Positions 19,586-36,458 of a stretch of DNA of 47,405 nucleotides are shown in pieces; the stretch's first letter is position 1, and each line of letters starts with the position of its first letter. The notes below the pieces were generated by a model, which had not been told where the DNA came from, made no database searches, and saw only the letters and a program-made list of their open reading frames with translations. Made by a program: the position numbers and the translations under genes. This DNA comes from Solirubrobacterales bacterium (GTDB taxonomy: Bacteria; Actinomycetota; Thermoleophilia; Solirubrobacterales; Solirubrobacteraceae): contig JBIOES010000001.1 in assembly GCA_044446265.1 (NCBI GenBank), forward strand, positions 1 to 47,405, given 5' to 3'.

Positions 19586-20083
19586 ATGGCTCGCCAGCTT
19601 TGGTTGCTACGTCACGCGGACGCCGAGCCCCACGGTGCTCGGCTCGATTCCGAGCGCAGGCTGACTGCGCGCGGGGAACGCCAGGCGCGCCTGGCGGGTG
19701 TCGCGCTGGCGCGCCTGCATGTGAACCTGGACGCGATCCTGGTGAGCCCCAAGGTGCGCGCCCAGCAGACCGCCCAGCTGGCGGTCGAGGACTGGAGCGA
19801 GTCCCAGCGGGCGCTGCAGACCCACCTGCCGCTGGCGGGCGGCTTCGACGCCGTGCAGGCGCTCGATGCGCTCGCCGCCGTGGGCCCCGAGGGGCATCTG
19901 ATGGTGGTGGGTCATGAGCCGGACCTATCGAGTGTGGTGGCCGAACTCACCGGCGCCCGCGTGGACCTGAAGAAGGGAGGCCTGGCGGTGGTGAGGCTAG
20001 GAGGCGGAGGAGGCGAGCTCGTGATCCTGCTGCGCCCCCGCGAGCTTGCGCTGATCGCCGACGTCGCGACCGCCGACGTCTAG
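19586..20083 (+). CDS. sixA: Phosphohistidine phosphatase SixA family
   Basis: LWLLRHADAE, RRLTARG, SPKVRAQQTA, VGHEPDL, LKKGGL. Confidence 0.9.
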   Translation: MARQLWLLRHADAEPHGARLDSERRLTARGERQARLAGVALARLHVNLDAILVSPKVRAQQTAQLAVEDWSESQRALQTHLPLAGGFDAVQALDALAAVGPEGHLMVVGHEPDLSSVVAELTGARVDLKKGGLAVVRLGGGGGELVILLRPRELALIADVATADV

Positions 20084-20926
20084 CGCGCCCTCGGCACCGG
20101 CGACTGCCTCAGCGGTGCCCTGGGGCTCTGCGGCGAGCGCGTCCTCGGCGGAGCTGCGGGCGGCGCCGATGGCCTCGGCGGCGAAGCGGTAGCCGATCCC
20201 GAAGTGGGTGTGGATGTAGCGCCACTGCGGCGAAGCCTTCTCGAGCTTCTGGCGGAGCTTGCGCACGAAGACATCCACGGAGCGGTCGCCGCGCACCATC
20301 GCGTAGCCCCACAGGCGCGAGTAGATCTCCTCGCGCTCCAGCACGCGCCCCTCGGCGGAGGCGAGCAGCTCGATCAGCTCGAACTCGCGGCGGGTGAGGT
20401 CGATCGAGGCGCCGTTGACGAACGCCTGGAAGCGGTCGGAGCGAATCTCGACCTCGCCGGCCGTGACGGGCTTGATCTCGCCGCGGCTGGCGGAGCGCCG
20501 GCGGCGGCGCACGACGCTCTGCACCCTGGCGATGACCTCCTCGGGGTGGCAGGGCTTGGTGATCCAGTCGTCGGCCCCCAGGCGCAGCCCGCGCACGCGC
20601 TGCGCGACGGTGGAGGGACCGGTGCAGACGACGATGCCGAGCTCGGGCAGCGCGCCGCAGAGGCGCTCGAGCCACGTCCACGCCTGCGGCCCCAGGATCG
20701 CGAGGTCCACCACAAGCGCGGAGAGGCGCATCGAGACAACGGCGTCGGCGGGGACGGGGCTACCGAGCACGCGGTGCTCCCAGCCGAGGCGGTCGAGGCG
20801 TTTGCTCAACACCTGGATGAAGCCGCTGTCGCGATCGAGAACCGCGATGCGCAGAGGCGATGTCGTTGAGGACGCGCCGCGGGCCTCCGATGTGCCCCCC
20901 TCAGCGCGGGTGCCGCTCTCCATCAT
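19997..20926 (-). CDS. OmpR/PhoB-family response regulator with divergent receiver domain
   Basis: Receiver (AVLDRD, VVDL, VCTG, GADDWITKP) plus wHTH (LTRREFEL...DRSVDVFVRKLRQKL...HTHFGIGYRF); directly downstream of phoU; low-complexity tail overlaps sixA. Confidence 0.9.
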   Translation of the reverse strand: MMESGTRAEGGTSEARGASSTTSPLRIAVLDRDSGFIQVLSKRLDRLGWEHRVLGSPVPADAVVSMRLSALVVDLAILGPQAWTWLERLCGALPELGIVVCTGPSTVAQRVRGLRLGADDWITKPCHPEEVIARVQSVVRRRRRSASRGEIKPVTAGEVEIRSDRFQAFVNGASIDLTRREFELIELLASAEGRVLEREEIYSRLWGYAMVRGDRSVDVFVRKLRQKLEKASPQWRYIHTHFGIGYRFAAEAIGAARSSAEDALAAEPQGTAEAVAGAEGALDVGGRDVGDQRKLAGAQQDHELASSAS

Positions 20927-20980
20927 CGAGGCGAAAGTGTATGCGAGGAGCGCGAGGAAATGTTTGCCGCGACGACAGAA

Positions 20981-20997
20981 GTCACAGGTTGTTCACA
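20981..20997 (+). promoter_or_regulatory. PHO-box-like direct repeat upstream of the regulator, in opposite orientation to the gene
   Basis: GTCACA-GGTTG-TTCACA with 11-bp phasing. Confidence 0.6.
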
Positions 20998-21020
20998 GAG
21001 AGGCTCGCAATTAGCGCGGA

Positions 21021-21770
21021 TCAGACCGCGCCGCCGCCGGTGGCGCCGCCCACGCCCATCGGGTGCGAGGAGTCGGAGAACTCGCGGAAGAGGCCCGTGA
21101 CCACGAAGGCGACCTGCTCGCCGATGTCCACGGCGTTGTCGCCCACGCGCTCCAGGGCGCGCGCGACGAGGATCATGTGCATGCCCCATTCGCGGATGTC
21201 CGCGTCGTCGCCGATCTCGAGCGCCATGCGGAAGATCTCGCGGTTGAGGCGGTTGATCTCGCTGTCCTGGCGCACGAGATCCTCGGCGAGTTCGACGTCG
21301 CGGTTGGCGAAGGCGGTCTTCGACTGCGTGACCTCCGAGCGCGCGAGCGCGCCCATCTTCATGAGCGTGTCGAGCAGTTCGCGGCGCACCGGGGGTTCGT
21401 GACCGGAGAGGGGGATCAGCTTGGCGATGTTCACACACTGGTCGCCCATGCGCTCGACGCACTTCATCACGTGCAGGAGGGCGGCCACCAGGCGCAGGTC
21501 GCCCGCGACGGGGGCCTGGAGGGCGAGCAGCGAGAGGATTCCCTGGTGGACCTCCAGATAGCGCCCATCGACGCGGTCGTCGTCGTCGATCACCATCTGG
21601 GCGAGCTCCACGTCCTGGTGGTCGAGCGCCTCGAGCACGCGATCGAGCTGCTCGACGATCAGGTCCAGCCCGCCGAGGGCGCGCGTCTGCAGCTCGTGCA
21701 GCTCCTGCTGGAAGTGCGCGCGGCCCTGCTTGCGCGCGCCGATGGAGTCAGCCGAACTTTCCAGTGACAT
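21021..21770 (-). CDS. phoU: Phosphate signalling protein PhoU
   Basis: [44 protein letters not shown]; follows pstB. Confidence 0.95.
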
Positions 21771-22680
21771 ATTCCTCGGTTCTGGAGTCGGAGGGGGCGG
21801 TGAAGATGTCCTGCGTGGGCCCGACCTCGACCATCTCGCCGCTGAGCATGAAGGCGGTGCGATCGGCCACGCGCGCGGCCTGCTGCATGTTGTGGGTGAC
21901 GATCACGATCGTCACGCGCTGCTTGAGGGTGGCGATCAGCTCCTCGATCTTCAGCGTGGCGATCGGATCGAGCGCGGAGCAGGGCTCGTCCATCAAGAGC
22001 ACCTCGGGGTCCACGGCGAGCGAGCGCGCGATGCACAGCCGCTGCTGCTGTCCGCCGGAGAGGCCGATGCCCGGCTCGGAGAGGCGGCCCGAGACCTCCT
22101 CCCACAGACCGGCGTCGCGCAGCGCGGTCTCGACCTTGGGGCGCAGCTCGCTGCGGCCGATGCCCGTGAGGCGCAGCCCGGCGGCGACGTTGTCGAACAC
22201 CGACATCGTGGGGAAGGGGTTGGGCTTCTGGAAGACCATGCCGACCGCGCGGCGCACGGCGATGACGTCGACCGAGGAGTCGTAGAGGTCGAGGTCGTCG
22301 ATCAGCACCTGGCCCTCGGCGCGCGCGCCGGGGATCTCCTCGTGCATGCGGTTGATGCAGCGCACCATCGTGGACTTCCCACAGCCGGAGGGCCCGATGA
22401 TCGCGGTGACCTGGTTGGCGGGGAACTCCAGGTCGATGCTCTTGACCTGTTCGGCGGAGCCGTAGAAGGCGCGCAGCTTGGCGAGGCGCACCTGCGGACC
22501 GCGTTTGACGACGCTCGCTGGCGCCGCCGGTGCGGAAGCGGTTGTATCCGCGGGGGGCGCTGGCTGGGAGCCCGGCTGGAGCATGGCTCCCCGCTCAGCC
22601 CCGGCGGCCTCTGCCGCCGCCGGAGGGGCTGGGGGTGATGGAGCGCCCGCCGATGTGGGAGGCGATGCGTCGGGGGTCAT
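21748..22680 (-). CDS. pstB: Phosphate ABC transporter ATPase (operon 1)
   Basis: [60 protein letters not shown] overlap with pstA stop. Confidence 0.95.
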
Positions 22681-35635: not shown

Positions 35636-35757
35636 GATGCTTGCTCCTTCTCTTGTGTTATGGGGTCGGAGAGCGCCGCTGGCGCTCCGGTGGAAGAGCC
35701 CTCGCTGCCGGTTGGGGCTTACGATGGCCCTGAGTCCTCCCTCTGAGGCTCGACCCC

Positions 35758-35786
35758 ATCTTGTTCCGCGCGCCGCTCTCAGTCAA
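35758..35786 (-). promoter_or_regulatory. Sigma70-type promoter candidate for the 193-aa secreted protein
   Basis: TTGACT-17 nt-CAAGAT on the minus strand. Confidence 0.45.
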
Positions 35787-35920
35787 GCGAAATATTGGAA
35801 ACATTTGCCAGGGCCGCGGAAGCGGACCACAGTACGGCGAAAAGCCCTTTGTCAGCACTGGTTTTTGGTGCATGTCCCCAGCGCCCAGTCGGAAACAGAA
35901 GACCGACGAAACGTTTCCGA

Positions 35921-36382
35921 TCACCCGGACGGGCGGGGCGGCGGCGTTGCCGCGAAGCGGTAGCCGACCCCGAAGTGCGTGTGGATGTAGGCCCAGTCGG
36001 GCGCCGCGTGAGCGAGCTTGGTGCGCACCTTGCGCACGAACACGTCCACGGAGCGGTCGCGGTGCTTCATCTCCCCGCCCCAGACGAGGCCGTAGATGTC
36101 GCCCCGGCGCACCACCCGGTCCTCGCGCTGGACCAGGACGGAGAGCACCTGGAACTCGCGCACGGTCAGCCCCACGCGGTGGCCGTCGACGAGGGCTTGG
36201 ATCTCGTCGGTGCGAATCTCGAGGTTGCCGTACACGAGCGCGGGCGTCTCACCGGAGTAGTGGGCCTCCGAATCGCCGGAGTTGTGGGTATCCGAAGGTG
36301 CTCCACTCGCCGCGTCGGCGTCCACAACCGCCCCGCCGACTGCGGTTCCCCCGTAATATGAGCGCAGCGCACGGTCGTCCAC
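35921..36382 (-). CDS. Stand-alone OmpR/PhoB-type winged-helix protein with no receiver domain, copy 2
   Basis: Short disordered N-term, then LTVREFQVL...DRSVDVFVRKVRTKL...YIHTHFGVGYRF. Confidence 0.87.
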   Translation of the reverse strand: MDDRALRSYYGGTAVGGAVVDADAASGAPSDTHNSGDSEAHYSGETPALVYGNLEIRTDEIQALVDGHRVGLTVREFQVLSVLVQREDRVVRRGDIYGLVWGGEMKHRDRSVDVFVRKVRTKLAHAAPDWAYIHTHFGVGYRFAATPPPRPSG

Positions 36383-36392
36383 TGACTGCGCG

Positions 36393-36458
36393 AAGCTATC
36401 GGGGGCCTGCTCCCGCGGAGGTGAAGCCGCGGTGACGTAGTGGATAAGAATTGGTGAA
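36393..36458 (-). promoter_or_regulatory. PHO-box-like promoter of wHTH-2
   Basis: Minus strand TTCACC-AATTC-TTATCC-ACTAC-GTCACC-GCGGC-TTCACC (36458-36420), 21-nt gap, TAGCTT. Confidence 0.65.

What the first reader, a model, noticed from the sequence alone, without database searches (positions are those of the whole stretch)
19997..36458. Kinase-less Pho circuit: one atypical regulator plus two receiver-less PhoB-type DNA-binding proteins
Seen: three paralogous OmpR-type wHTH domains share near-identical recognition helices (DRSVDVFVRKLRQKL / DRSVDVYVSKLRGKL / DRSVDVFVRKVRTKL) and the same IHTHxGxGYRF wing. Only 19997-20926 has a receiver. The two short genes (25783-26142, 35921-36382) each have their own four-unit box array. 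No histidine kinase occurs in the window, while PhoU, DUF47 and SixA do. Known: PhoB/PhoP/RegX3 are normally encoded with a PhoR/SenX3 kinase, and isolated PhoB effector domains can bind DNA without phosphorylation. Inference: this is a layered circuit in which inducible receiver-less modules amplify, compete for or shut off the same boxes. It is the best candidate here for an undescribed regulatory system.
Basis: partly seen in the sequence, partly recalled or inferred. Interest (0 to 1): 0.85.

Follow-up and report, generated by a model that had tools for sequence, protein, structure and literature searches.

The report
Kinase-free phosphate regulator with truncated paralogues
A widespread order of soil bacteria (Solirubrobacterales) has apparently lost the sensor kinase that normally switches on the phosphate-starvation response, yet keeps its regulator with a degenerate phosphorylation pocket plus short DNA-binding-only copies of it, so phosphate is likely signalled by a kinase-free route, possibly direct binding of a PhoU-like protein.

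Summary
Observation confirmed. The window is from a Solirubrobacteraceae genome. R1 (19997-20926) descends from the canonical PhoP that sister orders pair with a PhoR kinase. R1 is in 116 of 120 genomes of the order. PhoR was found in 0 of 120, against 67 of 69 genomes of three sister-order families. 31 of 34 R1 receivers lack a catalytic residue; all 16 sister PhoPs are intact.

The two receiver-less genes are old sister lineages under purifying selection (dN/dS about 0.15). Their four-unit GTTCAC arrays sit at -35 exactly as at pstS, so they are likely induced. The trio is not fixed: both short genes in 4 of 120 genomes, either in 77.

Likely mechanism: R1, made constitutively, is switched by a PhoU-family protein; the short copies amplify the output. 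DUF47/PitR is the lead: it is kept beside the regulators without its Pit transporter, and a complex prediction gave only weak support (0.43 against 0.00). Binding and function are untested. This scan earlier noted such a receiver-less paralogue in another genome (e1-3038883); that note, as shown, did not mention the order-wide kinase loss.

The parts
19997..20926 (-). R1: PhoP-derived regulator, pseudo-receiver (D31-R32-D33; Asp74, Thr and Lys kept) plus winged helix; core of the system
20936..20941 (-). Consensus -10 (TACACT) of R1, near-leaderless; predicted constitutive promoter
   Evidence: TAnnnT 36-39 bp from the box in 72 of 77 genus loci; position
20980..21001 (+). Two-unit PHO-type box on the strand opposite R1, with no -10 behind it; likely tunes R1's own promoter
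   Evidence: 22.4 bits; -10 pattern in box direction in 2 of 77 loci
21021..25678 (-). pstS-pstC-pstA-pstB-phoU operon (target genes; PhoU 21021-21770 is a candidate sensor)
   Evidence: synteny
25776..25820 (-). pstS promoter: two-unit box (25799-25820, inside R2's last codons) and -10 CAGACT
   Evidence: 24.8 bits; -10 pattern at +27/28 in 64 of 64 loci
25783..26142 (-). R2: receiver-less winged-helix protein, 119 aa, directly upstream of pstS
   Evidence: present in 63 of 63 genus loci with enough upstream DNA
26151..26227 (-). R2 promoter: four conserved units 26173-26216, a weak fifth at 26217-26227, -10 CATCAT 26151-26156
   Evidence: -10 pattern at +27/28 in 61 of 63 loci
26256..26890 (+). 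DUF47/PitR (PhoU-like), divergent from R2, no pit gene found in this genome; 1-nt deletion near 26565 in this copy; lead candidate for the sensor
   Evidence: -10 TATCCT 26244-26249 at helically phased distance from the array in 57 of 63 loci
26987..31703 (-). Second pst-like ABC cluster with a lipoprotein; likely target
   Evidence: box at 31862-31883
31862..31883 (-). Two-unit box between the second pstS and ftsH
   Evidence: 20.1 bits
35921..36382 (-). R3: receiver-less winged-helix protein, 153 aa with a poorly conserved N-terminal tail
36393..36459 (-). R3 promoter: four-unit array 36416-36459 and -10 TAGCTT 36393-36398
   Evidence: p=0.001 vs shuffles
36484..36505 (+). Two-unit box with -10 GACCAT in front of the divergent zinc-ribbon genes (36537 onward); likely target
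   Evidence: 25.2 bits
17340..20083 (.). ppk (17340-19532, minus) and sixA (19586-20083, plus): conserved neighbours, probably polyphosphate-related rather than part of the switch
   Evidence: sixA in 79 and ppk in 78 of 80 genus loci; same pair beside a canonical PhoP-PhoR in L196

Best explanation
This is the Pho regulon of Solirubrobacterales, apparently rebuilt without its PhoR kinase: R1, a PhoP descendant with a degenerate receiver, likely binds the 11-bp boxes, is predicted to be switched by a PhoU-family protein rather than by phosphorylation, and likely turns on short receiver-less copies (R2, R3) that would amplify the response. Steps and odds. (1) Shown: R1, R2 and R3 descend from the class's PhoP; no PhoR orthologue was found in the order; the receiver lacks a catalytic residue in most members. 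(2) Inferred, about 0.9: R1 is the core regulator of the box-bearing genes. (3) Inferred, about 0.7: its activity does not depend on aspartate phosphorylation. (4) Inferred, about 0.4 (DUF47/PitR about 0.3, PhoU about 0.1): R1 is made from a consensus promoter and held off in high phosphate by a PhoU-family protein docking on the alpha1/beta5-alpha5 face that the kinase used to bind. (5) Inferred, about 0.85: on starvation R1 activates weak -10 promoters from the -35 position, two-unit ones (pstS) first and the four-unit ones of R2 and R3 at higher activity. (6) Inferred, about 0.5: R2 and R3 cannot be switched off by a receiver, so their amount is their control; they fill box units beside R1 and raise output. 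R2, which has lost a recognition-helix arginine, probably depends on R1, which would stop the loop from latching.
For: Descent: the winged-helix tree puts R1 (96/91), R2 (98/99), R3 (99/94) and R2+R3 (95/91) inside a PhoP clade (98/94) with 12 canonical regulators of sister families. Many of those sit beside pst/phoU and a kinase and have the same box at their pst promoters. Kinase loss: a PhoR profile scores at least 246 bits in 67 of 69 genomes of families f7, f9 and f11, and at most 165 bits in 120 of 120 Solirubrobacterales. None of 33 Solirubrobacterales kinase domains on the tree, including the six best-scoring ones, enters the PhoR clade (100/98) or the wider clade around it (96/94). 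All 41 HisKA kinases of six complete or near-complete genomes have their own receiver protein next to them or are hybrids. Receiver: 31 of 34 R1 lack at least one of the five catalytic residues, 5 have Asn at the phosphorylation site; 16 of 16 sister PhoPs are intact. Yet the receiver is the most constrained part (dN/dS 0.076 vs 0.126 for the winged helix) and has new near-invariant residues on alpha1 and the beta5-alpha5 loop. Promoters: -10 pattern 27-28 bp from the last unit in 64 of 64 pstS and 61 of 63 R2 loci, and by eye in the R3 arrays. DUF47: 25 genomes keep it with no pit found; 27 of 73 pit-less copies lie within 1.2 kb of R1, R2 or R3; in family f5 it follows R1 directly in 11 of 11 genomes with pit in 0 of 11, whereas PitR co-occurs with PitA 97.8% of the time in a 926-genome survey (PMC13170248, section read). 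Predicted R1-DUF47 complex: weak pass, 0.43 vs best control 0.00, runs agree in at least 74% of contacts, partner pLDDT at least 87; that mark was reached by 116 of 157 solved and 2 of 215 mismatched pairs, but at 0.60 or under by only 18 solved and both mismatches. An isolated PhoB effector domain binds DNA constitutively (PMC4415409, section 4).
Against: No binding, expression or phenotype data. The window's R1 keeps Asp, Thr and Lys, and 3 of 34 R1 (family f4) keep all five residues, so some phosphorylation by acetyl phosphate or a non-cognate kinase is possible; PMC12632262 (passages) notes that such substitutions need not abolish it. Genome searches scored at most 19-23 candidates per genome for the kinase profile, and divergent true PhoRs scored as low as 184 bits. 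A DUF47 lies within 8 kb of a regulator in only 46 of 116 genomes with R1, and the window's own copy is frameshifted. The complex score is of a class that is more often wrong than right, and it paired the window's R1 with a relative's DUF47. 43 of 120 genomes have neither short gene, so they are dispensable.
Confidence: 0.55

Rival explanations
1. Same kinase-free core, but R2 and R3 are brakes: induced late from four-unit promoters, they occupy boxes without activating well and so compete with R1 (negative feedback).
For: An unswitchable activator that drives its own promoter risks latching on. R2 lost the arginine of the FVRK motif in 14 of 16 aligned members while R1 and R3 keep it. High-threshold four-unit promoters fit delayed shut-off.
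Against: The Trp and Asp-Arg around the transactivation loop are invariant in R2 and R3 (their role in PhoB-sigma contact is recalled, and the loop's general role is from passages of PMC10570014). R2 lies at the head of the pst genes in f1 and f3, in the same direction as pstS.
Confidence: 0.2
2. R1 is still controlled by aspartate phosphorylation, from acetyl phosphate or a non-cognate kinase; the kinase loss only changed the donor.
For: Asp, Thr/Ser and Lys are kept in most R1; three f4 members are fully canonical. The window encodes phosphoketolase and acetate kinase at 2869-6500. PhoR-independent PhoP phosphorylation by YycG is reported for a Pho system (bioRxiv 10.1101/2025.06.29.661413; listing and start of abstract only).
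Against: The metal-binding Asp is replaced in 26 of 34 and the phospho-Asp by Asn in 5 of 34, including the sole R1 of each of three f5 genomes. No unpaired kinase was found in six complete or near-complete genomes. The two unpaired kinases seen are in an f5 genome whose R1 has Asn.
Confidence: 0.12
3. R1 is switched by a small ligand (phosphate, polyphosphate, a nucleotide) or by modification (Cys-His loop redox, Ser/Thr phosphorylation) and is a true one-component regulator; DUF47 and PhoU only control transport.
For: Near-invariant new residues include two arginines on alpha4 and a KPCH loop. Ligand- and cysteine-controlled pseudo-receivers are known (PMC12632262, passages). ppk and sixA are constant neighbours in the genus.
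Against: Does not explain why DUF47 stays next to the regulators where no pit gene is found, nor the weak complex pass.
Confidence: 0.1
4. The short genes are decaying duplicates and a cognate PhoR exists but was missed.
For: Patchy distribution of R2 and R3; draft genomes; candidate caps in the searches.
Against: dN/dS about 0.15 like phoU, no stops in 63 R2 and 7 R3. Two clades span three and four families. 0 of 120 genomes have the kinase, and single-contig genomes were checked kinase by kinase.
Confidence: 0.03

Closest known systems
PhoR-PhoP of Streptomyces, SenX3-RegX3 of mycobacteria, PhoR-PhoB of E. coli (two-component Pho regulons)
   Same: OmpR-type winged helix; 11-bp direct-repeat boxes with a GTTCAC core like the S. 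coelicolor GTTCACC (PMC4415409); box at -35 of pstS; pst, phoU and ppk as neighbours; R1 descends from the class's PhoP.
   Different: No PhoR found in 120 genomes; receiver lacks catalytic residues in 31 of 34; R1 scores far under the NCBIfam PhoB cut-offs (115 vs 270, 100 vs 296 bits); extra receiver-less paralogues with their own box arrays.
Atypical orphan OmpR regulators with pseudo-receivers (GlnR, ChxR, HP1043)
   Same: Orphan, and meets the published pseudo-receiver definition (lack of any of five residues; PMC12632262).
   Different: R1 nests among PhoP proteins and lies in phosphate gene clusters; its kinase-paired ancestors are still visible in sister orders. GlnR itself was not on the tree. 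Dimer state untested.
Engineered isolated PhoB effector domain
   Same: R2 and R3 are natural equivalents; the isolated domain binds DNA constitutively (PMC4415409 citing Ellison and McCleary 2000).
   Different: Natural, conserved genes in two old lineages with box-driven promoters; no paper on such genes turned up.
PitR/DUF47 and PhoU accessory regulators acting through PhoR (S. aureus, E. coli)
   Same: PF01865 and PhoU proteins in the cluster.
   Different: Here DUF47 is often kept without PitA and next to the regulator, and there is no PhoR for it to act on.

Membership tests
Two-component Pho regulators (PhoB/PhoP/RegX3) | Receiver plus OmpR winged helix | tested here: met
   R1 only: Pfam; AlphaFold model with both folds, mean pLDDT 90.6; best fold matches are OmpR-family regulators
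Two-component Pho regulators (PhoB/PhoP/RegX3) | Orthology to the pst/phoU-linked regulator | tested here: met
   Within the class's PhoP clade, 98/94; named PhoB, PhoP or RegX3 sequences were not on the tree
Two-component Pho regulators (PhoB/PhoP/RegX3) | Cognate PhoR/SenX3 histidine kinase in the genome | tested here: not met
   0 of 120 genomes of the order vs 67 of 69 in three sister families; 0 of 33 kinase domains in the PhoR clade
Two-component Pho regulators (PhoB/PhoP/RegX3) | Five catalytic receiver residues | tested here: not met
   Window R1 has Arg at the metal-binding site; 31 of 34 R1 deviate
Two-component Pho regulators (PhoB/PhoP/RegX3) | 11-bp direct-repeat boxes at -35 of pstS | tested here: met
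   (sequence only)
Two-component Pho regulators (PhoB/PhoP/RegX3) | Binds the boxes and responds to phosphate through phosphorylation | not testable with these tools
   needs biochemistry and expression data
Atypical response regulators (pseudo-receivers) | Lacks at least one of DD, D, T, K | tested here: met
   definition from PMC12632262
Atypical response regulators (pseudo-receivers) | Active or switched without Asp phosphorylation | not testable with these tools
   Asn at the site in 5 of 34 is suggestive
GlnR | Orthology to actinobacterial GlnR | tested here: inconclusive
   GlnR structure ranks 42nd among fold matches; R1 groups with PhoP; GlnR was not on the tree
PitR (DUF47) accessory regulators | PF01865 domain | tested here: met
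   Both halves of the window gene exceed the cut-off
PitR (DUF47) accessory regulators | Adjacent pitA transporter | tested here: not met
   No PF01384 in G000 (90% complete) or the single-contig G005 and G025; 25 genomes with DUF47 and no pit found
Pseudogene fragments | Relaxed selection, stops, no conservation | tested here: not met
   R2 and R3 dN/dS 0.149 and 0.150, no stops

The most novel reading that the evidence does not exclude
A whole bacterial order has replaced the PhoR kinase relay by direct docking of a PhoU-like protein (DUF47/PitR) on the pseudo-receiver of PhoP, with inducible receiver-less winged-helix paralogues as an amplifier tier: a kinase-free Pho switch in which the PhoU-family phosphate sensor acts straight on a transcription factor.
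Probability: 0.3. Interest if true: 0.9.

Novelty: new variant of a known kind. Interest (0 to 1): 0.74.

Why it matters
A 2015 review states that in all cases described the Pho regulator is phosphorylated by its kinase (PMC4415409). A 926-genome survey found only 10 genomes with one of the two proteins, and no Conexibacter, Solirubrobacter, Patulibacter, Thermoleophil- or Gaiella name in its two held supplements (PMC13170248). Here an order common in soil metagenomes keeps the regulator, the boxes and the targets with no kinase found, while sister orders preserve the ancestral state for comparison. That makes two open questions testable with two or three small soluble proteins: how PhoU-family proteins convey phosphate status, and how pseudo-receivers are switched, which PMC12632262 calls a mystery. 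It also means that surveys which score phosphate regulation by phoR/phoB annotation would miss this group.

Tried and rejected
Cognate kinase elsewhere in the window's genome: the three HisKA kinases of OmpR-type pairs are KdpD-like or HAMP-type, each beside its own regulator, and outside the PhoR clade. Four further HATPase hits on C9 and C16 were not examined.

Unpaired HATPase hits in G039 and G216 read as anti-sigma-factor kinases by translation (family label from my own knowledge, no profile scan).

SixA as part of the switch: rejected as unspecific. Fixed trio: rejected. An antisense promoter from R1's reversed box: no -10 behind it (2 of 77).

The two-unit model missed the R3 array at 14 bits; a four-unit test found it, but not in 2 of 14 loci.

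Expression: no RNA holder listed. PhoU-R1 complex: not run, so PhoU as partner is untested.

Literature: Solirubrobacterales+PhoU+response regulator, 0 papers. Conexibacter+phosphate regulon, 4 soil metagenome papers, listing only. Thermoleophilia+two-component+PhoR, 2 unrelated, listing only. Receiver-less OmpR searches, nothing matching in the listings. One search was mostly noise (25 of 44 listed). The library lacks most subscription papers, so absence from print is not shown. The PhoB-sigma structure paper was not held; residue roles in PhoB are recalled.

The N-terminal DUF47 query was one base out of frame; counts use the C-terminal query and Pfam searches. dN/dS is Nei-Gojobori on high-GC DNA, 400 random pairs per gene (21 for R3), approximate. 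One long-branch kinase row was dropped, and 47 of 109 rows were left out of the careful tree. Eight DUF47 matches were unlisted and are missing.

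
Full report
1. Observation. The window is contig C1 of a 2.07-Mb, 90%-complete genome whose closest relatives are Solirubrobacteraceae, class Thermoleophilia. The three winged-helix genes are as described: R1 19997-20926 with a weak receiver, R2 25783-26142 and R3 35921-36382 without one. 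Gene order is ppk, sixA, R1, phoU, pstBACS, R2, DUF47 (divergent), a second pst cluster, ftsH, R3 and divergent zinc-ribbon genes. The contig has no histidine kinase. The genome's three HisKA kinases of OmpR-type pairs are KdpD-like or HAMP-type and have their own regulators.

2. Conservation. In 80 loci of close relatives, R2 lies upstream of pstS in 63 of 63 loci with enough DNA, and DUF47 beyond it in 61 of 61; a kinase occurs within 10 kb in 3 of 80. Across 120 genomes of the order (at least 90% complete) R1 is in 116, R2 in 62, R3 in 19, both in 4 and either in 77. In a separate draw R3 was in 6 of 24 genomes of the window's genus. Most of family f4 has neither. Open frames are too short for a receiver in 55 of 62 R2 and 14 of 19 R3 hits; five of the longer ones were read and had none. 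Median dN/dS: R1 receiver 0.076, R1 winged helix 0.126, R2 0.149, R3 0.150, phoU 0.149, with no stops. The short genes are real, old and optional.

3. Origin. R1-like proteins (at least 274 bits) occur in 25 of 26 genomes of the order and 0 of 124 other genomes of the class. The nearest proteins outside are canonical regulators. In families f9, f11, f12 and part of f7 they lie beside a kinase, in f9, f11 and that part of f7 also beside pst and phoU, and those pst promoters carry the same GTTCAC repeats. On a 62-row tree of 104 columns R1, R2 and R3 are each supported clades, R2+R3 are sisters (95/91), and all lie in one PhoP clade (98/94); the join of the three is weaker (87/89). The simplest history is one duplication with receiver loss, then a split into R2 and R3, before the families of the order diverged (inference).

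4. The kinase. A profile of six pst-linked kinases from f9 and f11 scores at least 246 bits in 27 of 27 f7, 24 of 25 f9 and 16 of 17 f11 genomes, but at most 165 bits in 120 genomes of the order. At most 19-23 candidates were scored per genome, and divergent PhoRs of f12 and f13 score 184-218, so I also used trees. None of 33 kinase domains from the order, including the six best scorers and two unpaired kinases of G033, enters the PhoR clade (100/98) or the wider clade with the f8 and f10 kinases (96/94). All 41 HisKA kinases of G005, G031, G039, G190, G216 (single contigs) and G030 (six contigs) have a receiver protein beside or within them. In G033 9 of 11 do, and its R1 has Asn at the phosphorylation site. 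PhoR was not found in the genomes searched; loss at the base of the order is the inference.

5. The receiver. By the definition in PMC12632262 (passages read) 31 of 34 R1 proteins are pseudo-receivers: the metal-binding Asp is R, S, T, N, G or A in 26, and the phospho-Asp is Asn in 5. Three from f4 are intact. All 16 sister PhoPs are intact. The fold is kept (pLDDT 90.6). New near-invariant residues cluster on alpha1 (G35, F36, V39, L40, R43) and the beta5-alpha5 loop (C126, H127, P128, E129), with W121 at the switch position. That this face docks the kinase in ordinary receivers is established knowledge, recalled. A strongly conserved new docking face without a kinase points to another partner or ligand (inference).

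6. The boxes. The unit is N(T/G)T(C/T)AC(A/G) repeated every 11 bp, close to the Streptomyces PHO box (PMC4415409, section 4 read). An nAnnnT hexamer lies 27-28 bp from the start of the last unit in 64 of 64 pstS and 61 of 63 R2 promoters, against at most 0.19 of loci at any other offset from 18 to 39. The same spacing is visible in the window's R3 promoter and in R3 and pstS promoters of other families. This places the last unit at -35, the class II geometry described for PhoB (passages of PMC10570014). R2 and R3 are therefore likely activated with pstS, from longer arrays. R1 and DUF47 differ: each has a near-consensus -10 just before the start codon, with the array on the other strand at distances that step by about one helical turn (72 of 77 and 57 of 63 loci). 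They look constitutive and modulated. Outside f1, R1 is usually divergent from pstS or from R2-pstS and shares its array.

7. The candidate sensor. Two earlier notes of this scan report DUF47 fused to a PhoB-type winged helix in another phylum (not checked here), which prompted a test. DUF47 is in 117 and Pit in 94 of 120 genomes. 25 genomes have DUF47 with no pit found. Of 150 listed copies 73 are not beside pit, and 27 of these lie within 1.2 kb of R1, R2 or R3. In f5 DUF47 follows R1 in 11 of 11 genomes with no pit found. A published survey has PitR with PitA in 97.8% of cases (PMC13170248; abstract, one results section, passages and two supplements seen). Against this, only 46 of 116 genomes with R1 have DUF47 within 8 kb of a regulator, and the window's copy is frameshifted. 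A predicted complex of the window's R1 with a close relative's DUF47 passed weakly: 0.43 against a best control of 0.00, at least 74% shared contacts, partner pLDDT at least 87. The mark was reached by 116 of 157 solved and 2 of 215 mismatched pairs, but at 0.60 or under by only 18 solved pairs and both mismatches. It is a lead. PhoU was not tested.

8. Mechanism. Best reading: constitutive R1 is held off by a PhoU-family protein in high phosphate and released on starvation; it activates two-unit promoters, then the four-unit promoters of R2 and R3, which add unswitchable DNA-binding domains. I favour amplification, since the Trp and Asp-Arg around the transactivation loop are invariant in both and an isolated PhoB effector domain binds constitutively. 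R2's loss of a recognition-helix Arg in 14 of 16 members may make it dependent on R1. A braking role remains plausible, as do residual phosphorylation and direct ligand sensing. Shown: anatomy, descent, selection, absence of the kinase in the genomes searched, promoter geometry. Inferred: all binding and all direction of control.

9. Comparison and novelty. It works like a Pho regulon but fails two defining tests of the two-component kind (kinase, intact receiver). R1 meets the pseudo-receiver definition. My searches listed no paper on this system, within a library that lacks most subscription journals. The scan itself had noted a receiver-less paralogue of this kind in another genome (e1-3038883). 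Verdict: a real, conserved, apparently undescribed variant of a known kind; interest 0.74.

Noticed in passing
window 26256-26890: DUF47 has a 1-nt deletion near 26565 against three close relatives: assembly error or recent loss. If real, this strain lacks the proposed sensor.
   Followed up: partly
G000 C30 about 6700-6720: Two-unit box (22 bits) upstream of genes that read like the start of the ATP synthase operon (family label from my own knowledge). Further boxes precede a third pstS (C4), glycosyltransferase-type genes (C13, C5; window 43086-43107) and a YceI-like gene (C3).
   Followed up: no
window about 21004-21014 and L021-L100: An imperfect palindrome CGC(A/T)A(A/T)T(A/T)GCG recurs a few bases from R1's box in the genus loci printed, in either orientation; possibly a second factor's site.
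   Followed up: no
window about 26935-26965: TTATTGCGCAATAA and a near copy lie in tandem just after DUF47; unexplained.
   Followed up: no
L205, L169, L117, L118, L120, L108: Second full-length R1 paralogues: all 7 genomes of genus g14 have two, and the two second copies inspected have Asn at the phosphorylation site; in the window's genus and in G031 the extra copy sits next to DUF47.
   Followed up: partly
L151 (family f7): The canonical PhoP is an orphan divergent from a Ser/Thr kinase gene, while its PhoR lies elsewhere in the genome: unlinking of the pair has also happened in a sister order.
   Followed up: partly
L198, L199 (family f8): The kinase-regulator pair next to pst uses a regulator outside the PhoP clade.
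   Followed up: no
Its sequence near 33000-33060 has several unusual substitutions around the Walker B motif (judged against a recalled consensus), perhaps an assembly problem.
   Followed up: no
window 2869-6500 and 7632-8336: Phosphoketolase and acetate kinase (an acetyl-phosphate source) and an orphan LuxR-type response regulator lie 11-17 kb from R1.
   Followed up: no
window 25783-25820: R2's conserved C-terminal PSRDVH is a by-product of the pstS box it overlaps; in other loci the frame ends earlier or later while the box stays.
   Followed up: yes
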